From: Candidatus Uhrbacteria bacterium
Lineage (GTDB): Bacteria; Patescibacteriota; Patescibacteriia; UBA9934
Length of the DNA: 64,000 nt
Assembly: GCA_018664485.1 (NCBI GenBank)
Contig: JABJOE010000007.1
Location: 132,353-196,352, forward strand
Direction of reading: 5' to 3'
Shown: positions 13,975 through 45,410 of the stretch, in pieces
How positions within the stretch are numbered: position 1 is the stretch's first letter
Layout: every line of letters begins with the position of its first letter
Position numbers and translations under genes: made by a program
The notes under the pieces: model-generated
What the model saw: only the letters and a program-made list of their open reading frames with translations
The model's database searches: none
Told to the model about the DNA's origin: nothing

Positions 13975-14772
13975 ATGACTACCGCCCCCTGGAAAACAAC
14001 GCTGCTCGCGCGCCACATTGACGCCGAAACAGCTCACCGCACTGCCATTGAAGACATGTTGACTGCCGCTCCCGACCAGATGACGAGCGATCGCATCCAT
14101 ATCGTGGATCGCTTGATCTCCTGGATCAAGGCAGACGCCAAGACCCTCCCAATCGCGGGCGCGGTCACCAGACTGCTGGCATTCAGCACCCACCGCTACA
14201 CCGAACTTCGCTGGCAAGTGATCGATCAGATTCCCCAGGGTGACATCCCAACCCTGCGTGACATGATCACCACCCTGCCCGGCCCCCTGCGCGCAGGGGT
14301 GTTCACCACGAAAGACATCGAGGCCGCCCGCATCAGCGTGCTCGCCGAACATGTCCTCACTTCGGCCAATGGCGACTGGGACCTCTTCTGCCGACTGACC
14401 CAGACGAACGGCTTCGACAGCCCAGAACAGGCCTGGAAAATGGTTCCTGTGGACCAACGCGTGGATTTCGTCAACGGCGGGAAGCGGCGCATGCTCGAGG
14501 CTGCCAGAAAGGGCGCTCAGTTCTTCAGCGGCGGACCATCTGCCAACGCGGAGTTCTGGAATCGTCTGCTCGCGCAGGTCCAAAACCTCGACTTCCCAAC
14601 CTGGGAGCACTTCTGCAATGCTGTGCCTTCGCACACGCACACTACGCTCGGTATCTCTGCGACTACTGCAGCACCAAACAAGCGTCGCGAACCCATCACG
14701 ATTGATTCCGACGACGTCTTCGTCGAGGCTTCTACCGTGTCTGGTGACAGCTCCATTGCCGACTGGCGATGA
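13975..14772 (+). CDS. Hypothetical protein (265 aa) encoded in a high-GC insert. No family recognised.
   Basis: A stop-free 800 nt in GC-rich DNA is very unlikely by chance. It has a protein-like composition and its own promoter. The antisense ORFs (13969..14640, 14226..14492, 14517..14756 minus) are Arg/Gly-rich artefacts typical of the opposite strand of a GC-rich gene. Confidence 0.5.
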   Translation: MTTAPWKTTLLARHIDAETAHRTAIEDMLTAAPDQMTSDRIHIVDRLISWIKADAKTLPIAGAVTRLLAFSTHRYTELRWQVIDQIPQGDIPTLRDMITTLPGPLRAGVFTTKDIEAARISVLAEHVLTSANGDWDLFCRLTQTNGFDSPEQAWKMVPVDQRVDFVNGGKRRMLEAARKGAQFFSGGPSANAEFWNRLLAQVQNLDFPTWEHFCNAVPSHTHTTLGISATTAAPNKRREPITIDSDDVFVEASTVSGDSSIADWR

Positions 14773-15201: not shown

Positions 15202-15657
15202 GTTCGGGATACGAGACAGTCGCCCTGCGCCCAGCGCTCAGGGAGGAAAGTCCGAACACCGCGTAGGCAGCAATGTTTACGGATACAGAACGTCGCTAAC
15301 GGCGACCGGGATATAGCATTATCAAACGAGGAATGAATTCGTTCTTTCCTCGAGCCATGAATTTAGGTTCACGGCCACACCAATGTAAACCTAGGGAAAG
15401 TGCCACAGAGACAATACTAGTTTGGCTCCGGTCAAACAAAAGGTGAAAAGTGATTTGAGGTTTGAGATCAGATGATCTAGGTAACTGTTACCAACAAGCC
15501 ACATTTCTCGCCCCACGGTGACGTGGTGGCGTGGTAAACCCGTTCTGGTGCAAGAGCAAGTTTGGTAGCTCGCTCGACCGGCATAGCAATATGTCGGCTA
15601 GATAGATGACTGTCGCCTCGCAAGAGGATACAGAATTCGGCTTACAAGTCTCCCGAC
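15202..15657 (+). ncRNA. rnpB: RNase P RNA (bacterial type A).
   Basis: Universally conserved P4 strands are present: 5' GGGAGGAAAGTCCGAACACC (15241-15260) and 3' ACAGAATTCGGCTTACAAG (about 15630-15648). The 5' AGACAGTCGCC and 3' TAGATAGATGACTGTCGCC segments match E. coli M1 RNA positions. It is a GC-rich island with a promoter upstream and a terminator downstream. Confidence 0.85.
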
Positions 15658-15668
15658 GAACATCAAGA

Positions 15669-15723: not shown

Positions 15724-17124
15724 ATGAATAGAGCAAATCTCTTTTTCACAGCCGTTCTTGTACCGCTAGATTTTATTACCCTCATAGCGGCAGCAACGGC
15801 AGCTTATAGCCTTCGTTTCTCAGAATCGATCCAGGGCATTCGGCCGATTATATTCGAGCTTTCTTTTCAGCAATATTTCGATGCTGCAATATCGTTTTCT
15901 CTAGTATGGCTTTTGATCTTTGCACTTGCAGGCCTTTACGCTGTCCGCCCACATCGACTCGCGGTTGAAGCGACTCGTGTACTACTTGCCTGCTCCGCCG
16001 GAATCGCGGTTGTGCTCGCCATCGCCTTTTTCTCACGCGAATTATTCGACTCACGTTTCATCGTAATTGCCGTATGGGTCCTTGCAGTTATATTTATTGT
16101 TATTGAAAGGCTTCTGGTGCGTGCAATCCAGCGATCACTTCGACGATACGGAATCGGCATGCAGCGCGTTTTGATAATTGGTAAAACAAAATCCGGTCAG
16201 GCCCTTCGAAAATATTTTGAAGCGTATCCTCGTCTTGGCTATGAAGTCATCGGACATGCTGCACTATTCAACGAATCAACAAAAGACAAAATCCTTGCTC
16301 TAAAAAAGCGTGAAATGGTCGACATGGTCCTTCTTGCAAACGGGGACGCTGATCGAAAAGAGGTACAAGAGATTAAAACTTTTACAGATATTGAACATCT
16401 CGGATTCTTATATTCTGCGGAGCTCGTTCCAGGATCTGGAGCGCGGCCAATCGTCCATACACTTGCAGGGCAACCCGTAATTGAAATCCCAAAAACACCA
16501 CTAGATGGTTGGGGCGCTATCTACAAGCGTGCTTTCGATATTATCGTCTCACTTATTTTGATAATTTTGACACTGCCAATCCAACTTATCGCAGCAATTG
16601 CGATTATCATTGAAAATCCAGGCCCTATTTTGTTTGTACATAAACGAGTTGGCCAAGGTGGCCGGATCTACAACCATGCTAAGTTCCGGTCAATGATTAA
16701 AGATGCCCACAAATATCGCTTCGATCCTGATTTTATAAAGAAATACGGAAATGAACGTGAGGGCACTCCCCTTTTTAAACTTGAGCATGATCCACGAATA
16801 ACACGCGTCGGTGCGATAATGCGAAAACTCTCCATCGATGAAATCCCTGAATTCTACATGGTACTTTTTGGAAAGATGAGCTTGATCGGACCACGACCTC
16901 ATCTCCCTGGAGAGGTAGAACAATACAAGGATCAACATAAACGAGTCCTTACAATCAAACCCGGCATTACAGGTATGGCACAGGTCGGAGGGCGTGCTGA
17001 CTTAAACTTCGACGAAGAAGTTCGGCTCGATATGCACTACATTGAAAACTGGAGCCCTTGGCTCGATCTCGTTATCCTTATAAAAACACCACTAGTCGTA
17101 TTTTTTGGAAGAGGCGCGTACTGA
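15724..17124 (+). CDS. Polyprenyl-phosphate glycosyl-1-phosphate transferase (WbaP/CpsE-type 'bacterial sugar transferase'); initiating enzyme of a glycan pathway.
   Basis: N-terminal multi-TM region plus the C-terminal sugar-transferase domain (ILFVHKRVGQGGRIYNHAKFRSM...PGITGMAQVGGRADLNFDEEVRLDMHYIENWSPWLDLVIL). TATAAT at 15710-15715 lies 8 nt before the ATG, so the mRNA is leaderless. Confidence 0.9.
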   Translation: MNRANLFFTAVLVPLDFITLIAAATAAYSLRFSESIQGIRPIIFELSFQQYFDAAISFSLVWLLIFALAGLYAVRPHRLAVEATRVLLACSAGIAVVLAIAFFSRELFDSRFIVIAVWVLAVIFIVIERLLVRAIQRSLRRYGIGMQRVLIIGKTKSGQALRKYFEAYPRLGYEVIGHAALFNESTKDKILALKKREMVDMVLLANGDADRKEVQEIKTFTDIEHLGFLYSAELVPGSGARPIVHTLAGQPVIEIPKTPLDGWGAIYKRAFDIIVSLILIILTLPIQLIAAIAIIIENPGPILFVHKRVGQGGRIYNHAKFRSMIKDAHKYRFDPDFIKKYGNEREGTPLFKLEHDPRITRVGAIMRKLSIDEIPEFYMVLFGKMSLIGPRPHLPGEVEQYKDQHKRVLTIKPGITGMAQVGGRADLNFDEEVRLDMHYIENWSPWLDLVILIKTPLVVFFGRGAY

Positions 17125-17201
17125 CAAAAACCAATAAGATGCAACGACACCCGTCGGATCGAGGTCCAACGGGTGTTTAAGTTCTAGGAAGATCAGCAAG
17201 C

Positions 17202-17786
17202 TCAAGGAGCGAGCTGGCCCCATGGGAAGTGGGTGACATCGAGGTCTAGGTCTATGCCAAGACTATCTCGGAGAAACACTCGAAGTGCATCGAATGTCCT
17301 TGGTCCGAATCCCACCATCTTCGTACCCGAATCGGTGATAGTCCGTATGGTTGGCATTTCTCGGCGCGTACCCGTACGATGCCGTACCCAGAATCCACCT
17401 TTCCCCTTGTAGATCAAGAGAAGATCTGCGACATGAGTAATTCCATGATCTTGAGAGCGATTGAATATCGCTGTCGGAACGTCATCGAGTTTATCAATCA
17501 GCTTGAACAAGTTCGGATTCCATCTTGGCTCAGGGTCACGCAGAAGCGCCTCGGTAAGCTCGCTCGCTGGACACACGATGGTCAATTCTGCCCCCTCTCG
17601 TTCCCAGTCGTGGGCAACCGAGGTGAATCCCTCGAACAAAAACGCAGTATTCTCGCCTGCTCCGCCGGTATAAATGAATGACTCAGCTGAACGATTGCGC
17701 GCAAGGACCATGAGCTCAGAGGCTGTGGGCTCGCGTCTGATCGGACTGGGACCATTACCATCTTGTAGGTCGATGAAAATCTTCAT
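17202..17786 (-). CDS. Hypothetical protein (194 aa) in a high-GC insert.
   Basis: ORF in a GC-rich block. A weak Rossmann-like G-rich motif (FIYTGGAGENTAF) is not enough to assign a family. Confidence 0.45.
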   Translation of the reverse strand: MKIFIDLQDGNGPSPIRREPTASELMVLARNRSAESFIYTGGAGENTAFLFEGFTSVAHDWEREGAELTIVCPASELTEALLRDPEPRWNPNLFKLIDKLDDVPTAIFNRSQDHGITHVADLLLIYKGKGGFWVRHRTGTRREMPTIRTITDSGTKMVGFGPRTFDALRVFLRDSLGIDLDLDVTHFPWGQLAP

Positions 17787-18003
17787 GAAAGCTCCCCTGT
17801 GTGGATCTGCACGTTATCAAGATCTTCCGTTTTTTTCAATAAATACAGGTTATACATCTGCTGAAGATTTGAGCCTTAAGTTATCCTACTTTTTATAATC
17901 TCAATATATATCAGGCGCTCAATCCTTCTGATAAATTTTTTCCACACTCAAACCCCGCGCCATAGCCCGGCGCGGGGTAAGTTTGATCGTAGCCAGTTTT
18001 CAG

Positions 18004-18441
18004 CTAGATCAGAAAGTTGATTGCAAGTCTTGATACCACTGGCACCGTCCACCCAACGCACAACACGCAAGTGACAAGAAGAGCGTCACGCTCAACGAAG
18101 TCCCAATCAGCCACGCTCTTTCCGTAGTTTTTCTTTCGTGCCGTGTATCCGACAAAAAAGAAAAAACAAACGAGGCAGATGGCAATTGCAGTTAGCTCGG
18201 CCAGGGAATCATCAGCGTACAGTGAGACTGTTGCAAACGACAAGTCCAAATACAGGCAGGCGAATATGCCGATCGGAATCAAGGTCCAATACTTCGCAAT
18301 AATGGACCACCTGTTTGAGATCGCGAGCTCAACAGCCGAAACCAATCTAAATATGGCTATAGCGACCATCAGCTTGATCCGATACCTTAGAGTTCCTCTC
18401 GCCAAAATGCACCTCCAAACGTTGTAATTTTCGCTGACCAA
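18004..18441 (-). CDS. Hypothetical small membrane protein (145 aa, 3-4 TM).
   Basis: Hydrophobic segments. No conserved motif recognised. Confidence 0.45.
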   Translation of the reverse strand: MVSENYNVWRCILARGTLRYRIKLMVAIAIFRLVSAVELAISNRWSIIAKYWTLIPIGIFACLYLDLSFATVSLYADDSLAELTAIAICLVCFFFFVGYTARKKNYGKSVADWDFVERDALLVTCVLCVGWTVPVVSRLAINFLI

Positions 18442-18566
18442 AGATCAACGAGCCAGTTAAACAGATTTACAGCAATAAGTCAATAGTCATAGCCTAAAAT
18501 AGATGTTGCACAAACGCCCACCCAGGAGTTCCCGGGCGGGCATCGGACGTCGTCAGTCAGTAGCGA

Positions 18567-20024
18567 CTAGCAGATCTTGCGAAAAGATATGGTGCCATCA
18601 CCAACGTGACGGACTGTACACACCCCGTTACCTACAGAGACGAGGTCTTTCACCGTTGTATTCCCTGCGCGCACTCGAGTACGAATCAAACCATCCCAGA
18701 CTGAATCTATGCTAGTTGATCTGGTAAGAACCGAGAACACGGGGATTGCACGCCCGCTATCCTCCCTCACCTCTCTGTCATCTTGCCAGTACAGAATCAA
18801 ACGGTCACCAACGCGACGCATACTGCTACCGCGAGTCCGCAGTACGATTTCGTCCAGACCATCAATCAACTCACCGCTCGCACTGTCGATGAACACAAGT
18901 CGGTCAGTTTTCTCGAACGTAATCAACGCGGCGAGAGTCCTGTCGTTGAGCACTTCGATTTGCCTGAATGTATAGCCCTGAGGAAGAAGAAAGGACTTCA
19001 TTCCACCTTGGAATCTGAATTCAACGATTCTCTCCCGTGATTCAGCCCCTTCGGAGACCACGAAAAAAACACGATCACCCCCTCTACACTGCCTACCTGC
19101 ACGAATGTCCACTTTACCATCGATAGTGATCTGTCCGATGGTGCCATCAATGGTCATCAGAAACACTATCGAGCCACCTCCACGGGCCGGGAAGGTTTCC
19201 AGCCACTGTCGGTTTCCCTCTACCTCTCGTAAAGTACCAAACAGCGCCTGCCCACCATTGCCCGACTGACGCATACCGCCCCAAATGACAGAGTTGAGTC
19301 GACGAATGCCGATGACCGGGAATGCACCCATAGCGCCAAGTACATACGCACCTTCAGCACTACAAAGCTCACGGTGAGTTTTATCCGATCCTTTTGCACG
19401 CCACAAATGAAGTACGCGGCAGACGCGATCTTGCGAGATTTGAACCGCCATATGCCGTGCACCCTCACTATCCTCCCAAAGCCAAGGGAGAAACTTCCGA
19501 TTGAAGAGCGCCTCTTCTCCCTTATTGTAGCCCTGACGATGCGTGACGAGATACTCTGGCGCAAGCTCTACACTCCAATCACCCCACACGAGATGATACA
19601 AGCCCCTATCGTCACGGTAGGAGAATGAAATTTCCCCACGCTCCCATTGAAGATGACTCACGTTGAAATGCCCTCTATCCGATGGCGCATTCTTGCTCCA
19701 GTCACCGTAAGGAGCGGACCTGTCTAGAATCTCAACACGACCATGACCATCAGCCCCCCGAGCACTCACGGCAATCGTACCGTCAGCGGCAACTGCAATA
19801 TCATGCACCTGCAGTATCCGACATTTGATCTGACCACTCTCACCCGATGCGAGGGTTGTAGGGTTGCCACGGAGACCCTCATGGGCACGCTCAAGGCGTG
19901 GGTTGTCGAAATCACCAGTACTAATGGCTGTAGCTATTTCCACAAGCATACCGGCGAACACACTTCTCAGACTTTCTGACATCATGTACTCCATTCCTAA
20001 AATGATGCAACGCGGATCAACCAA
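18567..20024 (-). CDS. Hypothetical protein (485 aa) in a high-GC insert; possibly a beta-rich/propeller-like fold.
   Basis: Long ORF in a GC-rich block with recurring DG-T/S-I and GxVxI strand-like repeats. No catalytic motif recognised. The start is uncertain (MVDPRC... or an internal MEYMMSES). Confidence 0.5.
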   Translation of the reverse strand: MVDPRCIILGMEYMMSESLRSVFAGMLVEIATAISTGDFDNPRLERAHEGLRGNPTTLASGESGQIKCRILQVHDIAVAADGTIAVSARGADGHGRVEILDRSAPYGDWSKNAPSDRGHFNVSHLQWERGEISFSYRDDRGLYHLVWGDWSVELAPEYLVTHRQGYNKGEEALFNRKFLPWLWEDSEGARHMAVQISQDRVCRVLHLWRAKGSDKTHRELCSAEGAYVLGAMGAFPVIGIRRLNSVIWGGMRQSGNGGQALFGTLREVEGNRQWLETFPARGGGSIVFLMTIDGTIGQITIDGKVDIRAGRQCRGGDRVFFVVSEGAESRERIVEFRFQGGMKSFLLPQGYTFRQIEVLNDRTLAALITFEKTDRLVFIDSASGELIDGLDEIVLRTRGSSMRRVGDRLILYWQDDREVREDSGRAIPVFSVLTRSTSIDSVWDGLIRTRVRAGNTTVKDLVSVGNGVCTVRHVGDGTISFRKIC

Positions 20025-20198
20025 ACCTTTTTGGCTAAGAAGATTGCTAACATCAAATCGGGAATTATGGATTGACAGGCATATGCCCGGCCGTCGAGTG
20101 ACGGCATCTCAAACTATCACTTTAAAGTACTATTCGTCAATCATTTCAACATAAAAGTACGTATTGCGCAGCCTCGCCTTTCCTGGTAAGTTCCTCTT

Positions 20199-21314
20199 AT
20201 GAAAGTCGCACTTATTCACGACCATCTCATCCAAAGCGGTGGAGCCGAACGGGTTCTTGAGGCTATGCAGGATATTTGGCCGGATGCTCCAACGTTTACG
20301 CTGCTATACGATCCTAATCGTATGGACGGCACTTTTGGACATCGCGACATTCGAACATCGTTTTTACAAAAACTCCCGGGCGCTACATCTGCACCCCGAT
20401 GGCTCCTACCTCTCATGCCAATGGCGACTGAGAGTTATGACCTTTCTGGATTTGATGTCATCGTGTCGTCAACCAGCGCATTTTCAAAGGGCATTATTCC
20501 ACCACAAGATGCAATCCATATTTGCTACTGTCACACGCCAACGCGATACCTTTGGTCTGACACCCACAGTTACGTCGAGAGCTTAAAAGTTCCCACCCCG
20601 ATCAAGTACGCACTTCGACCACTACTTACAAAACTTCGAACATGGGATCGCCTGGCTGCAGATCGCGTAGACCATTTCATTGCAAACAGCCAAACTGTCT
20701 CAAGCAGAATCGATCGCTACTACGATAAAGACAGCGACATCATTTTTCCACCGGTAGATATCGATCAATTTTCTATCTCAGATCGTCCAAAAGAGTACTA
20801 CCTAATCGGTGGACGGCTAGTGGACTACAAACGATACGACTTAGTCGTGGATGCTTTCACAAAACTTGGCTTACCTCTTAAAATATTTGGATCTGGTCCA
20901 ATTGAGGAAGACCTTCGTGCACGTGCTGGAAAAAATATTCAATTCCTAGGACGAGTTTCAAACGAAGAACGTGCTCACTTATTCTCAAACGCAATCGCTT
21001 TCCTGCACCCACAGGAAGAGGACTTTGGAATCACGCCAGTTGAATCCATGGCTGCAGGCCGACCTGTAATCGCATATCGAAAAGGTGGAGCCCTTGAAAC
21101 TGTAATCGAAGGCAAGACAGGTACATTCTTTGATTACCAAGAATGGGAAGAGATAGCCGACACGGTTATGCGTTTTAAACACGAAGAATTTGACCCGCAA
21201 GCAATCCGAGAACACGCCAAACAATTCTCAGTAGAGAAATTTCACAATAATCTTCGATCTTTCGTTGATAACACCTGGAAAGACCATCGTCAAAAGCATT
21301 TAGGACTTTTATGA
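20199..21314 (+). CDS. Glycosyltransferase family 4 (GT-B fold, retaining).
   Basis: N-terminal MKVALIHDHLIQSGGAERV and a C-terminal GT1/GT4 nucleotide-sugar binding region (FLHPQEEDFGITPVESMAAGRPVIA). It overlaps the next gene by 4 nt (ATGA), so the two are in one operon. Confidence 0.85.
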   Translation: MKVALIHDHLIQSGGAERVLEAMQDIWPDAPTFTLLYDPNRMDGTFGHRDIRTSFLQKLPGATSAPRWLLPLMPMATESYDLSGFDVIVSSTSAFSKGIIPPQDAIHICYCHTPTRYLWSDTHSYVESLKVPTPIKYALRPLLTKLRTWDRLAADRVDHFIANSQTVSSRIDRYYDKDSDIIFPPVDIDQFSISDRPKEYYLIGGRLVDYKRYDLVVDAFTKLGLPLKIFGSGPIEEDLRARAGKNIQFLGRVSNEERAHLFSNAIAFLHPQEEDFGITPVESMAAGRPVIAYRKGGALETVIEGKTGTFFDYQEWEEIADTVMRFKHEEFDPQAIREHAKQFSVEKFHNNLRSFVDNTWKDHRQKHLGLL

Positions 21315-22399
21315 AGATCGCGATAGACATACGACATCTCGGCGCACCGCATCAAGCTGGGGTCGGAAAATATACGCTCAAACTAATTTCTGAGTTAGCT
21401 CAATTGGCACCCGATGACCAATTTTTTCTATTTGCATCTGGTAGACCGCAAACACTAGCCTATCTACCAAAGTTCACAGCACCAAATATTACTGTGATCG
21501 AAAAAAATATTCCAAATCGATTACTGTTTCTACTATTTCTTTTAAAAATCAAAACAATCGAGTCTCTTCTTCCTGAGCAACCAGATATCTGGCTATTTCC
21601 AAATCATAATATTATACACACCAAAATTCCCTACGCACTCACTGTGCACGACATTAGCTTTGATATTTTTCCTGCTTTTTTCACGCTTAAAGACCGGCTG
21701 AGGTACAAACTTGGAAGAGCAAAAGAATTCACACAAAAAGCAAAACATATCTTTGCAGTATCGGAGTCAACAAGGCGTGACCTGATTGACCGTTGGAATA
21801 TCGATCCTTCCAAAGTAACCGCAACCCCTCTTGGCGTTGATTCCAAATACAATGGGAAAGAATTGCCTTCGGACAGCTCTTATCTCTCACTGCATAAGAT
21901 TCGAGGCGAATATCTACTATGCCTTTGTACCCGAGAGCCTCGCAAGAATCTCGAAGCGGTTATCGAGGCTTATGCCAGTTGTGACAACCTTCCAAATCTA
22001 GTAATTGCCGGAGGTCGTGGCTGGAAATCTAAAACCTTGGACGAAGTTATCAAGAAATCTGGGGTGAAACATCGAATTCAAGTAATCGGATACGTACCCG
22101 AAAAACATAAACCAGCGCTATACCGTCATGCAAAAGCTTTTCTCTTCCCATCGTTTTATGAAGGCTTCGGACTTCCCGCCGCCGAGGCAATTGCGTGTGG
22201 CACGCCAGTTATTGCGAGCTCAACAGGTTCACTGCCTGAGATAGTCTCCAAAAATGCCATACTAGTAGATCCGTTTAATGTGACCGACCTGGTACAGGCG
22301 CTGAAGATGGTGAATGAAAAAAAGACTCAAGATAAACCCGAGCATTCCTGGAGCGACACCGCAAAACGCACATACGAAATTTTGAAAAATCTTTCATAG
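21311..22399 (+). CDS. Glycosyltransferase family 4.
   Basis: EX7E-type motif region (EPRKNLEAVIEAYA...FPSFYEGFGLPAAEAIACGTPVIAS). Confidence 0.85.
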   Translation: MKIAIDIRHLGAPHQAGVGKYTLKLISELAQLAPDDQFFLFASGRPQTLAYLPKFTAPNITVIEKNIPNRLLFLLFLLKIKTIESLLPEQPDIWLFPNHNIIHTKIPYALTVHDISFDIFPAFFTLKDRLRYKLGRAKEFTQKAKHIFAVSESTRRDLIDRWNIDPSKVTATPLGVDSKYNGKELPSDSSYLSLHKIRGEYLLCLCTREPRKNLEAVIEAYASCDNLPNLVIAGGRGWKSKTLDEVIKKSGVKHRIQVIGYVPEKHKPALYRHAKAFLFPSFYEGFGLPAAEAIACGTPVIASSTGSLPEIVSKNAILVDPFNVTDLVQALKMVNEKKTQDKPEHSWSDTAKRTYEILKNLS

Positions 22400-22521: not shown

Positions 22522-22896
22522 TCACGAGTTCTCCAATTTTACACTCTTGATGTCCATACGGTGTCTAGAAGCCCACTCAGTGACTACGACTACACCTACT
22601 CCCTTGATAGAGATCCGCCCATTGCAGAGCTTCACAAGCCACGCGTTTACAGTGTAGCGCTTGCCATCAAATTCAAATGACGTCATGTATACAGCGATGT
22701 TAGCCACACACTGAGGCTCGCCACCATATGTAGTAAGACATGCAATCACAGAGCCGACGCTGTGACCAATATTCTTCACCTGCACCACCTTGCCCGACGG
22801 CAACCCTACAAGGAATACCGGGACTGTCGTTCTGTCTGGTACAAAGTTGTACCGGATTCCTTCGAATGAAAGTTTATACACTCCTACTTCCATCAA
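22522..22896 (-). CDS. Hypothetical protein (124 aa), opposite strand, GC-rich, inserted between glycosyltransferase genes.
   Basis: ORF with its own downstream hairpin and back-to-back convergent terminators. No family recognised. Confidence 0.4.
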   Translation of the reverse strand: MMEVGVYKLSFEGIRYNFVPDRTTVPVFLVGLPSGKVVQVKNIGHSVGSVIACLTTYGGEPQCVANIAVYMTSFEFDGKRYTVNAWLVKLCNGRISIKGVGVVVVTEWASRHRMDIKSVKLENS

Positions 22897-23108: not shown

Positions 23109-24248
23109 GTGTGCATGAGGATTGGTATCGATGCACGATTTTACGGTCCACGTTTTGGAGGTGGCGGCCTTGGTCGTTACGTCTCCGAATTAGTGACTCA
23201 TCTTCAGCTCATCGATACAGACAATGAATACGTTTTGTTCTTGCGAAAAGAAAACTTTCACGAGTGTGAAATTGTAAATCCTCGCTTCTCAAAACGACTG
23301 GTAGATATACCCTGGTACACAGTTCAAGAGCAACGACAAATGCCTGGCCACGTACGCCGAGCACGAGTCGATGTCATGCACTATCCTCACTGGAACATCC
23401 CGGTGTTTAGCAAAACTCCGTTCATTGTAACGATCCACGATCTCATTCTCCTACAAGATAAGGCGAGCGCAAGGAGCTCAACGCGACATCCGCTGATACA
23501 CGGTTTCAAATATGCAGGCTTTAGAACGGTTCTGGAAAATGCGATCCACCGATCAAAACACATCATCTCAGTTTCACAATATACAAAAGACACAATCCTA
23601 GACCACTTCGGACTTCACTCAGACAAAATCACAGTCGTTCCAAATGGAGTGATCCCGCAACGTGAATCTCGAGGGGTGAACCTAACAGCACTTGGTGTTT
23701 ATCAGCCATACTTCCTGTACGTCGGTAATGCATACCCGCACAAGAACCTCGAGATGATGATGCATGCATTTGCGCAGTTCCACCCACATCACCCACATGT
23801 ACAACTCGTAATTGCAGGCCGTCGTGACCTTTTCTCGCATAATCTTGAAAAAGAAGCTTCTGAGTTAGGTCTTGCACCCGGAGCCGTACGATTCGTTGAT
23901 CTACCAACCGATGAAGAGGTCGCCGCATTATACAAAAACGCTGCCCTATTCATCTTCCCATCGCGCATTGAAGGATTTGGAATCCCTCCGCTGGAAGCTC
24001 TCTCATACGGAACACCAGTAGCTGCGGCACATAGCGCATCTCTACCTGAAGTATTACGCGACGGTGCTCGATACTTCGATCCAGATGATATCGAAAAGTT
24101 AACGCTCCTAATGCGTGATGCCACAGAAGCACCTCATCGATTTGATGACTCGATCCATGCCGGAAAAAGCCAGGTAGATCGCTTTACATGGATGAAAAGT
24201 GCCAAACAAACTCTAAAAGTTTACAACGAGCTAAGTTTGCTCGATTAG
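23109..24248 (+). CDS. Glycosyltransferase family 4.
   Basis: Motifs (YPHKNLEMMMHAF...FPSRIEGFGIPPLEALSYGTPVAA). Extended -10 TGGTATAAT lies immediately upstream at about 23100. Confidence 0.85.
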   Translation: MCMRIGIDARFYGPRFGGGGLGRYVSELVTHLQLIDTDNEYVLFLRKENFHECEIVNPRFSKRLVDIPWYTVQEQRQMPGHVRRARVDVMHYPHWNIPVFSKTPFIVTIHDLILLQDKASARSSTRHPLIHGFKYAGFRTVLENAIHRSKHIISVSQYTKDTILDHFGLHSDKITVVPNGVIPQRESRGVNLTALGVYQPYFLYVGNAYPHKNLEMMMHAFAQFHPHHPHVQLVIAGRRDLFSHNLEKEASELGLAPGAVRFVDLPTDEEVAALYKNAALFIFPSRIEGFGIPPLEALSYGTPVAAAHSASLPEVLRDGARYFDPDDIEKLTLLMRDATEAPHRFDDSIHAGKSQVDRFTWMKSAKQTLKVYNELSLLD

Positions 24249-26958: not shown

Positions 26959-28857
26959 ATGCGCAACACCAATCAAACCGAAAGCAGCTTCAAATGTGCA
27001 ACTTTCCAAAAAAATATGACACATAAAAAAACGTCCCACCGTAAACGTGCACACAAGAAAAAGCCTTCACGAGAAGAAGAGCAAGAGCTCCTCATGGAAG
27101 AAGGTCTTGAAGCTATTTATGGAAAGAAGGAGGACATCGACTTTTCAAAACTCGACCACGATCAGGATCGTTTAACTAAACTCCTGATTCGTTTAGTTGT
27201 CGGTCTGGGTCTAGTAGCTACTATGGCTTGGAGCGGCTTTTTTGTCTTCATGAACTATGTAAACCCGCCACGAGATGAAACATTCACTCTGGAAATCTTG
27301 ATGGATGAAACTTTGGTTAGCGGAGAGGCTACAACGATTGAAATACTTTACACAAATCCAACCACCGTCCCTATCGCTGCCCTCTCGATCGACGTGAACC
27401 TTCCATCTTCCTTTGTAATAAGCCAAACCAATCAGCCACCGACAGATACGGATCAACTCATTTGGGATCTTGGAGAACTGACTGGCTTAAGTGACAATCA
27501 TATCGTAATTGAAGGAACTTGGTTTGCAGACACGCCGTCTGAAACACCCATACAGGCCTACGCGACCTACCGACCAGGTAATTTCAACTCTGAGTTTGAA
27601 GAGATTGCTGTAGCATATGTGACCAGCCTTTCAAGTGTCTTGGAGCTAAGTGTAGACGGTCCTGAGGAGCTTGCTCCTGGTGAAACTGGTGCCTACGCAA
27701 TTACATTGATAAACAATGGTGAATTGGCATACGAAGAAGTGGATATTTCGTTAGATTTGCCCGATGGTTTTTATCTTGAAAGTAGTGAACCTGAGCTTGA
27801 AGCCGGCTCACCTGCAAACTGGACAATTGAAACAATTGACCCCGAACTCGAAACGACTATTCTCTTTGAAGGTTCCTTTGCGGCCGACATCGAAGGTTTC
27901 CAATACTTTGATACCTTGGCCTACATGCAAATTGATGGACGTGAGCTTTTGCAAACGCAAGTACAGAACTATACAGACGTATTACGGAGTGATGTTTCCG
28001 TATCCCTCGCAGCCAATGGTGCGACAGACACCGTAGCACTCGATCAAGACGGCACATTACGCGTCAGTTTAGGTCTTGAGCAGTCAGGAAGCGAGGATCT
28101 AGAAGACTATTCCGTCCTATTGAGTTTTGAAAGTGAAGACAGCTTCCCAATTAACTGGAGCAGCTCACAGCTAGACGGAGGTACGCTTACACAAGACGGA
28201 ATCGCGTGGAGCGCTGAGGACATTGGAGCGATGGCGTCGGGTGTAAAAGAACTTCTCAACCTCTCATTCCCTATTGAAGCTATCGGATCTGGAGATGCTG
28301 ATCAATTTGAAATAACCGCACTCTTTACAACGGCTGACGGTACAGTTCGTTCGTCACCAATCACCGTATCGATAAACTCAGAGGCAGAACTCGCGACATC
28401 TGTTCGTTACTTCAACGAAGAGGGGCAAGCACTTGGATCTGGACCAATCCCTCCAGTCATCGATGAGGAAACAAGTTACCGGGTGTACTGGGTTTTGGAA
28501 AACGACCTACACACCCTCAAAGATATTCGCGTGAGCGCTACCCTACCACCACATGTAACGTGGTCTGATAAAGTAAATACTGATCTGGGTGATATAACCT
28601 TCGACAGCGGAAGTAGTACAGTGAGCTGGACTGTCGCAGAGCTCTCAACTGCAATCAGTCATCTGGAAGGCTACTTCACCATCTCTATCACACCGGACGT
28701 GGACGATATCGGATCTTTTGTAAAATTAACCTCGAGCACGGATTTGCTTGCGACAGACACAGTAACTGGTACACAGCTTCACCGGGCACAGGACAATCTC
28801 ACTACCGAGGCGCCTGATGATGAGTTTGCAAGCGGGCAAGGAATTGTTGTAGAGTAG
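26959..28857 (+). CDS. Membrane-anchored surface protein with repeated beta-sandwich (DUF11/CARDB-like) domains.
   Basis: Basic N-terminus, one TM (LLIRLVVGLGLVATMAWSGFFVF), then repeated ~100-aa acidic Thr/Ser-rich modules. The start is uncertain: in-frame ATGs at 26959 and 27016 are both possible. Confidence 0.5.
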   Translation: MRNTNQTESSFKCATFQKNMTHKKTSHRKRAHKKKPSREEEQELLMEEGLEAIYGKKEDIDFSKLDHDQDRLTKLLIRLVVGLGLVATMAWSGFFVFMNYVNPPRDETFTLEILMDETLVSGEATTIEILYTNPTTVPIAALSIDVNLPSSFVISQTNQPPTDTDQLIWDLGELTGLSDNHIVIEGTWFADTPSETPIQAYATYRPGNFNSEFEEIAVAYVTSLSSVLELSVDGPEELAPGETGAYAITLINNGELAYEEVDISLDLPDGFYLESSEPELEAGSPANWTIETIDPELETTILFEGSFAADIEGFQYFDTLAYMQIDGRELLQTQVQNYTDVLRSDVSVSLAANGATDTVALDQDGTLRVSLGLEQSGSEDLEDYSVLLSFESEDSFPINWSSSQLDGGTLTQDGIAWSAEDIGAMASGVKELLNLSFPIEAIGSGDADQFEITALFTTADGTVRSSPITVSINSEAELATSVRYFNEEGQALGSGPIPPVIDEETSYRVYWVLENDLHTLKDIRVSATLPPHVTWSDKVNTDLGDITFDSGSSTVSWTVAELSTAISHLEGYFTISITPDVDDIGSFVKLTSSTDLLATDTVTGTQLHRAQDNLTTEAPDDEFASGQGIVVE

Positions 28858-29147
28858 TAGACTCCTGTAACAGCCATTGTCCTGACTTCATTCGCTGTCT
28901 GTTGGGCTACAACAAGCTCCAACCTCGTTAGCGTAGCCCTGCTATGCTTCCTTGATTGTCATTTGTTTCGCCACAACATCCACTCGAATGAATCTAGAAC
29001 ATGACCGTCACAGGAGTCTTTCGCTTTCAATTTTCAGATACAAACCAATACACAGTTTTATAATAATCAATAGACACTCGCAACCTCACACTCTTTTTAA
29101 TCGATAAGCTGCGGAGCGTTTTCTTTTACAGGGAGAGTAGATCTGGT

Positions 29148-29324
29148 ATGCTATTTACGCCATTTGGCATCAACCTGATACCCGGAAACATCGTGAACAA
29201 CATCATTGCAGGCGGCGGATACGGCTATGTCGTCACAGACGGAGGCAGCCTCGGCGTCAAGAACGGAAGTACCCTCGTGACCATTGGCGGCCACGGTCAG
29301 TCACCCCAGCTCATGGAGAAGTGA
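29148..29324 (+). CDS. Small Gly-rich peptide (58 aa), MLFTPFGINLIPGNIVNNIIAGGGYGYVVTDGGSLGVKNGSTLVTIGGHGQSPQLMEK; missing from the ORF track because it is under 60 aa.
   Basis: GGAGAG sits 10 nt upstream of the ATG. A hairpin terminator lies 40 nt downstream. Composition resembles Gly-rich bacteriocins/microcins. It sits in a high-GC insert. Confidence 0.3.
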   Translation: MLFTPFGINLIPGNIVNNIIAGGGYGYVVTDGGSLGVKNGSTLVTIGGHGQSPQLMEK

Positions 29325-29366
29325 CCGTCACCTCCACCGCGTAGCGTCAACTCTCGGCGCCTTGGA

Positions 29367-29400
29367 CCGGTCAGCTCTGCTGGCCGGTTCCTTCGTTTTC
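29367..29400 (+). terminator. Intrinsic terminator after the 58-aa peptide gene.
   Basis: CCGGTCAGC (29367-29375) TCT GCTGGCCGG (29379-29387) with one G-U pair, followed by TTCCTTCGTTTTC. Confidence 0.4.
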
Positions 29401-29480
29401 ACGCCACAATACCCTTTACATAATAGACCTTTCTGCTATGCTAATCAGGCTCATCTCCGAGCTCCAGCAAGAAGGTACCC

Positions 29481-29615
29481 ATGAACTACGAACTCATCTC
29501 CGGCGAACTCCAAGGAGCACCACCCGACGGCGTGCGTGTCCCTGTCGGTGGTGGCCGAAAACGCTCACTCTCCATCGTGCATCGCGGCGAAAACGGCATC
29601 GTCTCGACCGTCTGA
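29481..29615 (+). CDS. Small basic peptide (44 aa), MNYELISGELQGAPPDGVRVPVGGGRKRSLSIVHRGENGIVSTV.
   Basis: ATG preceded by AAGGT. TTTACA-N17-TATGCT lies upstream at 29415-29443. A perfect 8-bp hairpin follows (29679-29700: ATCCGGCC / GGCCGGAT, then T-rich). Confidence 0.25.
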   Translation: MNYELISGELQGAPPDGVRVPVGGGRKRSLSIVHRGENGIVSTV

Positions 29616-29812
29616 TGGATACCTCCATCGACGAGAGCGCGTGCGTCTAGGTGGCCTGAAGTCACCAATACGCTTCTGATCCGGCCCCTTGTGGCCGGAT
29701 CTTTGCATTGTGGATATTTATTGTATTCACCTCTCAATCATGCTATCGTATATTAGAACTTTGACTTGTCATCCAGACACTTCGGGTTCGTGCTCCACGC
29801 TTTGGACACATC

Positions 29813-29944
29813 ATGGAACAGCCGCTGACCGCCATCCCACCCGCCGCCGCTTTCGACCACACCGCCGACCATGCCGACTGCGACGCCGCGGACACCGTGC
29901 ACACCGCCTACACCGACGTCAACAACGAAGCCGCCGCTGGCTGA
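29813..29944 (+). CDS. Small acidic peptide (43 aa), MEQPLTAIPPAAAFDHTADHADCDAADTVHTAYTDVNNEAAAG.
   Basis: Third small ORF in the same high-GC insert. It is followed by hairpin CCTGG-ATAAA-CCAGG plus T6 at about 30030-30050. Confidence 0.2.
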   Translation: MEQPLTAIPPAAAFDHTADHADCDAADTVHTAYTDVNNEAAAG

Positions 29945-30068
29945 GACCGCGCAAGACGCGCAGTCTGAGTCAGTGAGTCTGGGCGCGATCGGAACTCCGA
30001 TCGCGCCCGCTTGCTTTATACAAAAACACCTGGATAAACCAGGCGTCTTTTTTATTACAAATTTATTA

Positions 30069-43585: not shown

Positions 43586-43684
43586 ATTCTCGGTAATCAC
43601 TGAGTGAGGGTGGCAAGCTGTACAAGATGTCCTGGCGCCTATGTCATGGACAGCTATCCCGACCATGGGATAGGAGAACATACA
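43586..43684 (+). repeat. Array repeat copy A (M2-type module only), immediately upstream of ORF1.
   Basis: ...GAGGGTGGCAAGCTGTACAAGATGTCCTGGCGCCTATGTCATGGACAGCTATCCCGACCATGGGATAGGAGAACATACA-ATG is homologous to copies B, C and D. The SD (AGGAG) is embedded in GGGATAG, which can pair with the upstream CTATCCC. Confidence 0.6.
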
Positions 43685-44047
43685 ATGGAAGAAAAGCTTG
43701 CAACCGATCAGAAGCGCCTCTCAAATGAGTTCCTGCTTGAATTCTTGAGTGCGACTAACAATGACGAGCGCTGCAAAGCGCTTATCAAGGAGTCATACCG
43801 ACTCTGGCCGAACAGGGATGGAAATCTCTACGATGGAGCCGACCACCCGTACTGTGTCTGGGAGAACAATGCCACAACTGCCGTTTCACGCGAGGAGAAT
43901 GCAAAGATCTGTCTCCAACACGCGAAATATGCAGACAGCAACTGCCCGTTCGCAGATGGCGGAGTCCTCTACGACTTTGTCACAACTAGTGTACTTCTGT
44001 GGGAGCCAGAAAAAGCCCGCATCAAAGAAGTTTACGAGTCACTGTAG
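43685..44047 (+). CDS. Cassette ORF1: hypothetical 120-aa soluble protein.
   Basis: Start ATG 43685, with GGAG 8 nt upstream. The ORF-track start at 43604 would read through the repeat. No recognised family. Confidence 0.5.
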   Translation: MEEKLATDQKRLSNEFLLEFLSATNNDERCKALIKESYRLWPNRDGNLYDGADHPYCVWENNATTAVSREENAKICLQHAKYADSNCPFADGGVLYDFVTTSVLLWEPEKARIKEVYESL

Positions 44048-44058
44048 TTCTACTATCT

Positions 44059-44269
44059 CCCCAAGCAACTCGCTTGGGGCTCCGCAGAGCACATCACACA
44101 GTGGTGGATTCCGCAGAGCAGGAATACTTCCCGCTTCAATACAGCCCTCGACCAACGAGGACATCTAATACATTCCCGGAGACTACCGGGTGAAGATGGC
44201 AGTCTGTGTAATATATCCTGACATTTGTGTCATGGATAACTATCCCTTGGTACGGATAGAAGTATACAT
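44059..44269 (+). repeat. Array repeat copy B (modules M1+M2) between ORF1 and ORF2.
   Basis: M1 contains hairpin CCCCAAGC-AACT-GCTTGGGG (44059-44079) and a direct repeat CCGCAGAGC x2. M2 contains CCTCG-ACCAA-CGAGG, CCGG-AGACTA-CCGG, the GGATAACTATCC palindrome, and CTATCC-CTTGGTAC-GGATAG just before the ATG. Confidence 0.65.
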
Positions 44270-44656
44270 ATGAGCGCGATCCTCTTTCTCCTGCTTTCAA
44301 GTCTCCTAGCACACGCAGACGACATCGTCACTACAACAAGGGCCGAAACGGTTGTCGGTTATAGTGACGAGACTCTGATCTCCATAACTTCCGAAGTTGG
44401 AAGAGAGTGCTACGCCGCACGAAAGTGGCGACACTCAACTCTCGTATGCAGCGACATAGCAGTCTACACAATCCTTACGCACTCAGGTACATCATTGAAA
44501 AGTGTCAGTGTACCCATGTCGGCAACGACCTGGAATACTGCTCCGGTACCTGGTAGCCGAATCGAAATTAGGTGCGAAGTAACAGTAGATGAGTACAACA
44601 ACACAAACGGGTACCCGCTATTCATCCGGCGCCTTGATGAGTGCTGGGCGAACTAG
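44270..44656 (+). CDS. Cassette ORF2: hypothetical secreted 128-aa protein (signal peptide, 6 Cys).
   Basis: MSAILFLLLSSLLAHADD signal peptide. No recognised family. Confidence 0.5.
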   Translation: MSAILFLLLSSLLAHADDIVTTTRAETVVGYSDETLISITSEVGRECYAARKWRHSTLVCSDIAVYTILTHSGTSLKSVSVPMSATTWNTAPVPGSRIEIRCEVTVDEYNNTNGYPLFIRRLDECWAN

Positions 44657-44751
44657 TCAAACCCTTCTCCCCCTGGTACTAACCGGGGGCTCGATATAGA
44701 GCATGACAGAATCGTGCCTTGCGTCGAGCTAGATCATATCTGGCCTACATG

Positions 44752-44876
44752 CAGCCCTCGACCAACGAGGACTTCCAATAATCCGGATTTCCCGGTGAGG
44801 ATGACAAGCTGTACTAGATATCCTGCCCCTCGGGTCATGGATAGCTATCCCTTGGTACGGATAGAAGTAATAAGAG
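44752..44876 (+). repeat. Array repeat copy C (M2 module); the preceding M1 is replaced by a different GC hairpin (44669-44689).
   Basis: GCCCTCGACCAACGAGGACTTCCAATAATCCGGATTTCCCGGTGAGGATGACAAGCTGTACTAGATATCCTGCCCCTCGGGTCATGGATAGCTATCCCTTGGTACGGATAGAAGTAATAAGAG-ATG is about 95% identical to copy D across M2. Confidence 0.65.
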
Positions 44877-45404
44877 ATGCCAGAACATCAGAAAACTGAG
44901 GCTATGCTAAAAATGATGGCCAGCCGGACGGCAAAGGAGCTTCCGCCCCTTCCAGATGGATCCAAAATCATTCTGGAAGACGCACCTTCCGGACTCGTTC
45001 TAGCCAGAAACAGTCAGCGAGGAGGAATGTTTAGAAGGTGGAACGATGACAGAGGTCTTTTTCGCCGATTACTAGATCTGCTTCTTGGGTACAGTAGGAA
45101 AGGAGTACCCGTTCGACTGTTCGACCTGACCTGCTCAAACCAGTTCGACCTAGTTGAGTCAGAGCACGTCATAAAGGAAGCGTACATGGAGCTTCGGTGC
45201 ATCATCCAAACAAAGCCCAAACAGGTCTACCGAGAACTGTTTGGTAAAGCTGCACCTCCTCACTGGTCAAATAAGGAGGAGATGTGTATGCATAGACTAA
45301 ATGATGCATTCAAAATCAATCAACGGAACCGCACTGATCTCTCTGGGGTCTTCGCGATCCGGTATGCGTGCGAATGCGCCATAAAAGCAAGCTACCCACT
45401 CTAG
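44877..45404 (+). CDS. Cassette ORF3: hypothetical 175-aa protein.
   Basis: ATG directly follows repeat C. No recognised family. Confidence 0.5.
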   Translation: MPEHQKTEAMLKMMASRTAKELPPLPDGSKIILEDAPSGLVLARNSQRGGMFRRWNDDRGLFRRLLDLLLGYSRKGVPVRLFDLTCSNQFDLVESEHVIKEAYMELRCIIQTKPKQVYRELFGKAAPPHWSNKEEMCMHRLNDAFKINQRNRTDLSGVFAIRYACECAIKASYPL

Positions 45405-45410
45405 TACCTT

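What the first reader, a model, noticed from the sequence alone, without database searches (positions are those of the whole stretch)
17202..20024. High-GC three-gene ORFan island (194 aa, 145-aa membrane, 485 aa) inserted in the envelope-glycan locus on the opposite strand
Three genes sit between the initiating sugar transferase (15724-17124, plus strand) and the GT4 operon (20199 onward, plus strand). They run on the minus strand, are GC-rich, and lack recognisable domains.

- The 194-aa protein has a weak G-rich Rossmann-like motif (FIYTGGAGENTAF).
- The 485-aa protein has repetitive beta-strand-like DG(T/S)I motifs.

Placement, strand and composition all suggest an inserted accessory module. 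It could be a defence or effector function, but no domain evidence supports any specific claim.
Basis: partly seen in the sequence, partly recalled or inferred. Interest (0 to 1): 0.55.

Follow-up and report, generated by a model that had tools for sequence, protein, structure and literature searches.

The report
Orphan-gene islet splitting a glycan operon
Three real but orphan genes, one of them probably a beta-propeller protein, were inserted between two normally adjacent cell-envelope sugar-transferase genes of a tiny uncultivated bacterium (Candidatus Uhrbacteria); they are a pile-up of separate, dispensable accessory genes, not a recognisable defence or biosynthesis module.

Summary
Three minus-strand ORFs (194 aa; 145 aa, or 121 aa as annotated, with 4 TM segments; 485 aa, best start giving 471 aa) lie between a polyprenyl-phosphate sugar transferase (PGT) and a GT4 glycosyltransferase gene. 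The genome is a Candidatus Uhrbacteria (CPR) genome.

- **Composition:** "High-GC" is modest overall (47.5-52.5% against 44.3%) but clear at third codon positions (GC3 0.50-0.58 against 0.39, z 3-5).
- **Domains:** No Pfam, NCBIfam, PHROG, PADLOC or PDB sequence hit.
- **Insertion:** In 71 related Uhrbacteria genomes the two flanking genes sit a median of 49 bp apart, so this is an insertion.
- **Not a module:** Each gene has its own terminator hairpin. Only the large gene has relatives, in two sister genomes at the same site (27-39% identity), where it stands alone.
- **Dispensable:** That gene is frameshifted, nonsense-mutated or partly deleted in one sister population, and absent from two other close relatives.
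- **Fold:** A modest AlphaFold model resembles only beta-propellers.
- **Hot spot:** The same spacer holds unrelated cargo in other lineages.

Verdict: an ordinary flexible orphan-gene islet of unknown function. One odd feature is unexplained: orphan genes at this site keep a very high GC3 whatever the host composition.

The parts
15724..17124 (+). Left flank: polyprenyl-phosphate sugar transferase (PGT), a conserved core gene
   Evidence: Pfam Bac_transf 2.9e-61 plus CoA_binding_3. Orthologues at 47-86% identity in 160 loci.
17147..17176 (.). Hairpin downstream of PGT. It belongs to the core locus, marks the left edge of the insertion, and also lies just after the 3' end of the 194-aa gene.
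   Evidence: 12-bp stem, z -3.1. Nearly the same hairpin follows PGT in L096 and L089, which lack the 194-aa gene.
17202..17786 (-). 194-aa soluble orphan protein, found only in this population
   Evidence: ORF longer than any rank-2 ORF in shuffles. GGGGAG lies 7 nt before the ATG. GC3 0.53. Only a self-hit in 5.8 billion proteins. No hit in 175 related loci, phages, plasmids, viral contigs or PDB.
17952..17978 (-). Terminator-like hairpin after the membrane-protein gene
   Evidence: 11-bp perfect GC-rich stem followed by UUU, z -6.8.
18004..18441 (-). Small membrane orphan protein: 145 aa from TTG, or 121 aa from the ATG at 18369 as annotated publicly. About four TM segments.
   Evidence: Hydropathy segments 22-43, 47-75, 77-103 and 118-145. 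GC3 0.58. The cluster holds only this population plus one F-to-V variant. No family hit. Weakest of the three by ORF length alone.
18513..18544 (-). Terminator-like hairpin after the large gene
   Evidence: 14-bp stem, z -4.1. A near-identical hairpin (loop GGAGTTCC) follows the homologue in L009.
18567..19982 (-). 471-aa orphan protein (the ORF runs to a TTG at 20024, 485 aa): an N-terminal helical hairpin plus an all-beta, probably seven-bladed propeller. No signal peptide or TM segment.
   Evidence: Homologues exist only at the same site in L009 (27%) and L089 (36-39%). Codon-position identity runs pos2 > pos1 > pos3. AF2 with 4 sequences gave pLDDT 57, pTM 0.55 and about 29 strands. Foldseek top hits are all propellers, at low TM-scores.
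19983..20140 (-). Promoter-like site (20113-20140, TTGACG-16-GATAGT) and about 120-nt leader of the large gene, with two or three small hairpins
   Evidence: Promoter scan. Nucleotide conservation with L089 and L009 even though synonymous sites in the flanking genes are near saturation. RNAalifold found 21 pairs, 3 with compensatory changes, from only 3 sequences. No Rfam match.
20199..21314 (+). Right flank: first GT4 glycosyltransferase (GT4a), a conserved core gene
   Evidence: Pfam Glycos_transf_1 2e-26. Directly follows PGT in most relatives.

Best explanation
The region is a flexible orphan-gene islet, not a functional module.

**How it arose.** The short spacer between PGT and the first GT4 gene of the conserved Uhrbacteria envelope-glycan locus is a permissive landing site. 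Foreign or lineage-specific genes accumulate there, mostly in the opposite orientation. In the ancestor of a small clade (this genome, L009, L089) a GC-rich gene was inserted there with its own promoter, structured leader and terminator. This genome later added two further single-gene units (194 aa soluble; 121/145 aa with four TM segments) between that gene and the PGT terminator.

**What the large protein is.** It is a cytoplasmic protein with an N-terminal helical hairpin and a roughly seven-bladed beta-propeller. It is most likely a non-enzymatic binding platform whose ligand is unknown.

**How it behaves in evolution.** The gene evolves very fast and is dispensable. Sister lineages carry it frameshifted, nonsense-mutated or partly deleted, or lack it. 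A side effect of the insertion is that PGT and GT4a, probably co-transcribed in relatives, are now separated by 3 kb of antisense genes and hairpins.

**Shown:** the insertion, the lack of module conservation, the protein-coding nature of the large gene, the propeller-like fold class (at modest confidence), and decay or absence in relatives.

**Inferred:** horizontal origin, one gain followed by losses, the binding-scaffold role, independent transcription of each gene, and co-transcription of PGT and GT4a in relatives.
For: **Insertion and hot spot.**
- The PGT-GT4a gap has a median of 49 bp in 71 genomes, against 3,074 bp here.
- Ten genomes have gaps above 400 bp, holding unrelated cargo that is mostly on the opposite strand: GrpB, a GDSL hydrolase, a reverse-transcriptase fragment and other orphans. 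These include a second orphan family shared by L065 and L070 at 33% identity.

**Separate units.** Each gene is followed by its own hairpin (z -3.1, -6.8, -4.1). No flanking repeats were found. The hairpin next to PGT is conserved in relatives that lack the island.

**Family of three.** HMMER against 1.84 billion representatives and a profile search of 5.8 billion proteins find only the copies in L009 and L089. All sit at the same site and in the same orientation.

**Coding.** tblastn gives E 6e-28 and 6e-61. Codon-position identity is 0.46-0.49 / 0.53-0.58 / 0.30-0.49.

**Decay.**
- L089 carries a frameshift that splits the gene into 213 + 263 aa, with a GTGA overlap, seen on 16 contigs.
- L095 adds a nonsense change; both of its SNPs fall inside the gene.
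- L177 has a 69-bp deletion.
- L096/L097 (91% aa to L089) and L176 (93% aa to this genome) have no copy. L176 keeps a 14-24 nt piece of the leader.

**Fold.** The AF2 model is all-beta after two helices. The top 50 PDB hits are almost all propeller-containing proteins such as Sec12, DPP-IV, prolyl oligopeptidase and WD40 proteins, and many of the viral hits are too. One blade resembles the repeat of a repeat-rich protein (P0017) with a weak Pfam CBM_6 match. No TM or signal segment was found.

**Atypical composition.** GC3 z-scores are 3.2-5.5.
Against: **No donor.** No donor or mobility gene was found, so horizontal origin rests on composition and synteny alone.

**GC3 persistence.** The homologues keep GC3 0.84-0.93 in hosts of 0.46-0.67, although fourfold sites of the flanking genes are near saturation between these genomes. 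A single old acquisition should have ameliorated, so repeated delivery or a gene-specific force may be involved.

**Parsimony does not decide.** One gain plus two losses costs three events; so do three independent gains.

**Signs of use.** The conserved leader, and retention of an intact gene in two lineages, imply the large gene is used and not junk.

**Weak structural basis.** The model is of modest quality (pLDDT 57, with the central third below 50) and TM-scores are 0.23-0.36. Only the fold class can be claimed, not a family.

**The two small genes.** Nothing experimental or comparative shows that they are expressed.
Confidence: 0.6

Rival explanations
1. A novel anti-phage defence or effector module. 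A soluble sensor (the propeller and/or the 194-aa protein) would work with the small four-TM protein as a membrane-disrupting effector.
For: - Atypical composition, orphan status and fast evolution fit conflict genes.
- Many small defence systems pair a soluble protein with a TM effector (my own knowledge).
- Rapid gain and loss among relatives.
Against: - No PADLOC hit at E <= 1 for any of the three.
- No nuclease, NTPase, TIR, SIR2 or protease domain.
- The three genes are not conserved together: the propeller stands alone in L009 and L089.
- Each gene has its own terminator and the spacers are long.
- No neighbouring defence genes; the flanks are core envelope genes.
Confidence: 0.1
2. Accessory envelope-glycan functions. 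The propeller would be a lectin, lyase or hydrolase acting on the locus's polysaccharide, and the four-TM protein a GtrA-like helper for lipid-linked sugar translocation.
For: - Location inside a glycan locus.
- Some carbohydrate-active enzymes are propellers; a PL42 rhamnose-glucuronate lyase (7esn) is among the top ten Foldseek hits.
- One blade resembles the repeat of a protein with a weak Pfam CBM_6 match.
- GtrA proteins are about 120 aa with four TM segments (my own knowledge).
- Other lineages carry a GDSL acylhydrolase at this site.
Against: - No CAZy-type or GtrA Pfam hit even at E <= 1.
- No signal peptide on the propeller.
- Opposite strand, with its own promoter and terminators.
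- Absent from nearly all genomes that keep the same glycan locus, including the closest relative.
- Pseudogenised in L089 while the glycan genes stay intact.
Confidence: 0.12
3. The two small ORFs (194 aa, 145 aa) are not genes. They would be chance ORFs in decaying foreign DNA, leaving the propeller as the only real gene.
For: - No homologue anywhere, so there is no comparative evidence of coding.
- The 145-codon ORF is only just beyond the shuffle range.
- Elsewhere the window holds a 1.2-kb GC-rich stretch with no long ORF that looks like a decayed insert.
Against: - The 203-codon open frame exceeds every rank-2 ORF in 1000 shuffles.
- A Shine-Dalgarno-like GGGGAG precedes the 194-aa start.
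- Each ORF is followed by a strong hairpin.
- The 145-aa product has four regularly spaced hydrophobic segments.
- GC1 > GC2 in the 194-aa ORF, as in real genes.
- The sequence is identical on 9 contigs from several samples.
Confidence: 0.15

Closest known systems
Flexible genomic islets or hypervariable regions in cell-envelope polysaccharide loci of free-living bacteria (for example O-antigen and glycosylation islands of marine bacteria; my own knowledge)
   Same: Sits in an envelope-glycan locus. Differs between close relatives. Atypical base composition. Cargo is mostly hypothetical proteins. Gained and lost repeatedly.
   Different: The cargo is not glycosyltransferases. The islet is very small (3 kb, three single-gene units). 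GC is higher than the host, not lower. It lies antisense inside what is otherwise a tight gene pair.
Bacterial ORFans as described for enterobacteria: short, fast-evolving, compositionally atypical genes of suspected phage origin (my own knowledge)
   Same: No homologues outside a narrow clade. 27-39% identity where the flanks keep 81-86%. Frequent pseudogenisation.
   Different: Classical ORFans are AT-rich and short. Here they are GC3-rich, and one is 471 aa with a complex fold. No phage or plasmid relatives were found.
Beta-propeller proteins (WD40, PD40/TolB-like, and the propeller domains of prolyl oligopeptidase and DPP-IV)
   Same: The predicted all-beta architecture has about seven four-stranded sheets. 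Foldseek hits at E 2e-6 to 7e-5 are almost all propellers. DG-turn motifs are present.
   Different: No sequence-family membership. No peptidase or other catalytic domain is attached. It has an extra N-terminal helical hairpin. TM-scores are only 0.23-0.36, from a model with pLDDT 57.
Integron gene cassettes
   Same: Same-orientation orphan ORFs, each followed by an inverted repeat.
   Different: No integrase nearby. The hairpins are short perfect stems followed by T-rich sequence, without the attC R''/R' (RYYYAAC/GTTRRRY) ends (read from the sequence). At least the large gene has its own promoter-like site and leader.

Membership tests
Known anti-phage defence systems (PADLOC-DB v2) | At least one protein matching a defence-system HMM | tested here: not met
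   0 families at E <= 1 for all three proteins and two neighbouring orphans.
Known anti-phage defence systems (PADLOC-DB v2) | Component genes conserved together as an operon across genomes | tested here: not met
   Only the large gene recurs, and it recurs alone. Separate hairpins follow each gene.
Beta-propeller fold | Repeated four-stranded antiparallel sheets arranged around an axis; structural similarity to solved propellers | tested here: inconclusive
   The model has about 29 strands in about 7 groups, and the top Foldseek hits are almost all propellers. But pLDDT is 57, the central third is below 50, and TM-scores are 0.23-0.36.
WD40 / PD40 / Kelch / PQQ / BNR repeat sequence families | Significant match to the repeat HMM | tested here: not met
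   No Pfam or NCBIfam hit at E <= 1. The PDB profile search was empty at E <= 10.
   TGGAGENT does not fit GxGxxG in any register (read from the sequence). No Pfam or PDB hit. Structure not predicted.
GtrA-like small membrane proteins of glycan loci (PF04138) | Match to the GtrA HMM; about 120 aa with four TM segments | tested here: not met
   Size and TM count fit. There is no GtrA hit at E <= 1; the only hit is DUF4131 at E 0.94.
Integron cassette array | IntI integrase and attC sites with R''/R' core sequences | tested here: not met
   No integrase domain was found in the neighbouring genes scanned against Pfam. The hairpins lack the attC cores (read).
Integrative mobile element (IS, prophage, ICE, tRNA-targeting island) | Recombinase or transposase, flanking direct or inverted repeats, tRNA/tmRNA target | tested here: not met
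   No flanking repeats beyond chance level. No recombinase domain. The only tRNA is at 53451. No phage, plasmid or viral-contig similarity.
Conserved core synteny of the Uhrbacteria envelope-glycan locus | Present at this position in most related genomes | tested here: not met
   Absent from 68 of 71 genome loci. Only the large gene is present, in 2 sister genomes.

The most novel reading that the evidence does not exclude
The PGT|GT4a spacer of Uhrbacteria may be a dedicated landing pad. Under this reading it is repeatedly supplied with GC3-rich orphan genes from an unsampled high-GC gene pool, by a mechanism that leaves no integrase or repeats. Alternatively, a gene-specific force holds these orphans at GC3 0.7-0.9 for longer than synonymous saturation, whatever the host composition. 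In either case the orphan propeller, with its conserved structured leader, would be a regulated and rapidly diversifying host- or phage-interaction factor of an episymbiotic CPR bacterium.
Probability: 0.15. Interest if true: 0.6.

Novelty: new member of a known kind. Interest (0 to 1): 0.3.

Why it matters
As it stands this is a routine result: a small flexible islet of hypothetical genes with no evidence of a new system.

Its modest value is threefold.
- It documents, with about 160 syntenic loci, a well-defined insertion hot spot inside a conserved CPR envelope-glycan locus.
- It shows the full life cycle of an orphan gene in a handful of related genomes: gain, fast divergence, frameshift, nonsense, deletion, loss.
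- It defines a new three-member protein family with a probable propeller fold.

If the persistent high GC3 of orphans at this site proved to be a general rule, it would bear on where CPR orphan genes come from.

Tried and rejected
**Family and sequence searches that found nothing.**
- Pfam, PADLOC, PHROGs and NCBIfam scans of the three proteins, two neighbouring orphans and the L009 homologue found nothing usable.
- PDB sequence searches with the 194-aa protein and with the family profile returned no hit at E <= 10.
- tblastn against phage and plasmid collections found nothing.
- Viral-contig scans found nothing.
- A metagenome scan with motifs of the large family found nothing.

**Structure prediction.** Single-sequence AF2 of the 471-aa protein was useless (pLDDT 36).

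**Ideas tested and dropped.**
- Flanking repeats or attachment sites: only chance-level matches.
- Integron cassettes: no integrase, no attC cores.
- A non-coding RNA explanation for the GC-rich DNA: no Rfam match at E <= 1, and the codon-position pattern shows the large gene is coding.
- Paralogy among the window's orphans: none.
- Co-transfer of the flanks with the island: no GC3 spill-over into PGT or GT4a.

**Literature.** Searches found nothing relevant.
Full report
**Source and observation.**
The window belongs to a Candidatus Uhrbacteria (CPR/Patescibacteria) genome. The proteins match NCBI MBT4857223-29, on a 986-kb contig.

They lie between a Bac_transf/CoA_binding_3 sugar transferase (PGT) and a GT4 glycosyltransferase.

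Their lengths exceed shuffled expectation: 513/203/146 codons against 95th percentiles of 179/137/120. The smallest is only moderately beyond chance.

Compared with 41 ordinary genes of the window (GC 0.443 +/- 0.022, GC3 0.392 +/- 0.035):

| Gene | GC | GC3 |
|---|---|---|
| 194 aa | 0.525 | 0.53 |
| 145 aa | 0.475 | 0.58 |
| 485/471 aa | 0.525 | 0.50 |

The GC3 z-scores are 3.2-5.5. So 'high-GC' is real, but it is mainly a third-position effect.

None of the proteins hits Pfam, PADLOC, PHROGs, NCBIfam or PDB sequences. The 'Rossmann-like' motif does not fit GxGxxG. The DGTI repeats are there.

**Gene anatomy.**
- *Large gene.* The best start is the ATG at 19982 (471 aa). It has a GGAG 6 nt upstream and agrees with the homologues' N-termini.
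- *194-aa gene.* It has GGGGAG 7 nt upstream of its ATG.
- *Small gene.* It encodes about four hydrophobic segments. The other two proteins have none and no signal peptide.
- *Terminators.* Each gene is followed by its own strong hairpin (z -3.1, -6.8, -4.1), and the spacers are 217 and 125 nt.
- *Left edge.* The hairpin nearest PGT is conserved downstream of PGT in relatives that lack the island, so it belongs to the core locus and marks the left edge.
- *Mobile-element signs.* No flanking repeats, recombinase or tRNA target is present.

**Is it an insertion?**
A scan of one genome per species with PGT returned 80 Uhrbacteria loci, and a metagenome scan returned 80 more.

The order RNaseJ-TrpRS-PGT-GT4a-GT4b-GT4c-DUF4012-p632 (the 632-aa ORF at 26959-28857) is conserved, with some inversions of the distal part. 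In 71 genomes where both genes are on one contig, the PGT-GT4a gap has a median of 49 bp. Here it is 3,074 bp, the largest seen. The region is therefore not core synteny.

Ten genomes have gaps above 400 bp. They hold unrelated cargo, mostly on the opposite strand:
- a GrpB protein;
- a GDSL acylhydrolase;
- a reverse-transcriptase fragment;
- several orphans, including a second orphan family shared by L065 and L070 at 33% identity.

The spacer is a recurrent landing site.

**Relatives of the three genes.**
The 194-aa and 145-aa proteins have no relative anywhere. Tested were 5.8 billion clustered proteins for the 194-aa protein, an exact-sequence cluster look-up for both, and all 175 loci. 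The 194-aa protein was also searched against phages, plasmids and viral contigs without result.

For the large protein, an exhaustive HMMER search of 1.84 billion representatives found only three related entries. These resolve to two genomes:
- *L009.* Flanks are 86% identical; the homologue is 486 aa at 27-29% identity.
- *L089-L095.* Flanks are 80-81% identical; the homologue shows 36-39% identity.

In both genomes the gene is at exactly this site, in the same orientation, and alone. Codon-position identities (pos2 > pos1 > pos3) show it is protein-coding. A promoter-like TTGAC box and a roughly 120-nt leader with two or three small hairpins are conserved at nucleotide level among the three genomes. 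The terminator hairpin is shared with L009. No Rfam family matches.

**Decay and loss.**
- In L089 the gene is split by a frameshift into 213 + 263 aa, with a GTGA overlap, on 16 contigs from several samples.
- Strain L095 adds a nonsense mutation; its only two SNPs in 3.5 kb fall in this gene.
- Strain L177 has a 69-bp deletion in it.
- L096/L097, sister to L089 (91% aa identity in the flanks), has a 167-bp gap with only the PGT hairpin.
- L176, the closest relative of this genome (GT4a 93% aa identity), has a 405-bp gap without any of the three coding regions. It keeps a 14-24 nt piece of the leader.

The simplest story is one gain in the clade's ancestor, followed by fast divergence and repeated decay or loss, with the two small genes added later in this lineage only. 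Three independent gains would cost the same number of events. I think that less likely because the leader and terminator are homologous.

**What the large protein is.**
Single-sequence AF2 failed (pLDDT 36). With the four-sequence alignment the model reached pLDDT 57 and pTM 0.55. The N-terminal 145 and C-terminal 135 residues score about 70-85. The model has two N-terminal helices followed by about 29 strands in about seven groups.

In Foldseek, the top 50 PDB hits are almost all propeller-containing proteins: Sec12, DPP-IV, prolyl oligopeptidase, acylaminoacyl peptidase, plexin sema and WD40 proteins. Many BFVD hits are WD40, BNR, FG-GAP or Kelch proteins. E-values go down to 2e-6, but TM-scores are only 0.23-0.36.

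One blade (residues 62-97) resembles the repeat of a repeat-rich protein (P0017) that has a weak Pfam CBM_6 match.

I conclude only the fold class: a cytoplasmic beta-propeller with a helical N-terminal hairpin and no attached catalytic domain. Its most likely role is as a binding platform.

**An unexplained regularity.**
The homologues are far more GC3-rich than their hosts:

| Genome | Orphan GC3 | Host GC3 |
|---|---|---|
| L009 | 0.85-0.93 | 0.59-0.67 |
| L089 | 0.84-0.88 | 0.46-0.56 |
| This genome | 0.50-0.73 | 0.39-0.40 |

(the orphan ranges include the neighbouring orf265 family, 13975-14772 in the window.)

Other opposite-strand orphans at this site in distant Uhrbacteria also have GC3 of 0.67-0.84, whatever the host value (0.43-0.81). 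The GrpB and GDSL cargo is host-like.

Fourfold sites of the flanking genes are close to saturation between the three genomes: identity 0.22-0.46, mostly about 0.3, against 0.21-0.28 expected. A single old foreign gene should therefore have ameliorated. There is no GC3 spill-over into the flanks, and no donor exists in the databases. Either delivery from an unsampled high-GC pool is recurrent, or something gene-specific holds GC3 high. I could not decide between these.

**Comparison and verdict.**
The finding behaves like a flexible genomic islet of orphan genes in an envelope-glycan locus. It fails every tested membership criterion for defence systems, integron cassettes, integrative elements, GtrA, Rossmann proteins and named propeller repeat families (see the membership table).

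It is a new member of a known kind, of low to moderate interest.

Noticed in passing
window 13975-14772 (+): Another orphan gene (265 aa) between TrpRS and the RNase P RNA gene, much more GC-rich than the island (GC 0.60, GC3 0.73). It has a 43%-identical homologue at the same place in L009 (GC3 0.93) and what looks like a truncated 135-aa remnant in L089 (GC3 0.88). The life history matches that of the large island gene.
   Followed up: partly
window 22522-22896 (-): A 124-aa orphan ORF (GC3 0.54) on the opposite strand in a 710-bp gap between the second and third GT4 genes. L009 and L089 have only about 60-90 bp there and no homologue. This is a further small insertion in the same locus.
   Followed up: partly
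window 28858-30068: A 1.2-kb stretch at about 55% GC with no ORF over 95 aa, between the p632 (DUF11-like) gene and the FemAB gene. The equivalent gap in L089 is about 350 bp. It looks like a decayed GC-rich insert. No Rfam match at gathering threshold.
   Followed up: no
window 20025-20140 (-), with L009 13030-13150 and L089 9830-9975: The leader upstream of the large orphan gene is conserved at nucleotide level across three genomes whose synonymous sites are near saturation. It has two adjacent short hairpins and a third near the start codon (21 predicted pairs, 3 compensatory, from only 3 sequences). No Rfam match.
   Followed up: partly
window 15204-15660 (+): The bacterial class A RNase P RNA (161.8 bits) spans 457 nt against a 367-position model, so it carries extra insertions. 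It sits between the 265-aa orphan and PGT.
   Followed up: no
window 43604-45600 (+): Three consecutive domain-less ORFs (147, 128, 175 aa) with raised GC (0.49-0.51, GC3 0.51-0.56). The first 20 residues of the 147-aa ORF recur at 44795-44851 and 45537-45596 (65-68% identity), suggesting a shared N-terminal leader on neighbouring small genes.
   Followed up: no
L083 11725-12399 (-): In a distant Uhrbacterium the same PGT|GT4a spacer (2.85 kb) holds a reverse-transcriptase fragment (RVT_1, E 1.9e-9) next to a 315-aa orphan. That orphan has a 74%-identical copy in L079.
   Followed up: no
L065 11449-12087 (-) and L070 8130-9041 (-): A second orphan family (33% identity, E 2e-19) occupies the same spacer, on the opposite strand, in two other Uhrbacteria. 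It is compositionally native in the high-GC host (GC3 0.71 against 0.80) and foreign-looking in the low-GC host (0.67 against 0.45).
   Followed up: partly
L177 (population of L089), about 1056 in the locus: This strain's contig also lacks 54 bp inside the PGT gene relative to L089, and its PGT is called as two pieces (249 + 143 aa). This may be a real disruption of a core gene or an assembly artefact.
   Followed up: no
window 21311-22399 and 23109-24248 (+): Two of the conserved GT4 genes score above the Pfam cut-off for PF20706 'GT4 in conflict systems' (47.6 and 45.7 bits against a cut-off of 26). They are core genes of the locus in all Uhrbacteria examined, so the label is probably just overlap with Glycos_transf_1.
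   Followed up: no
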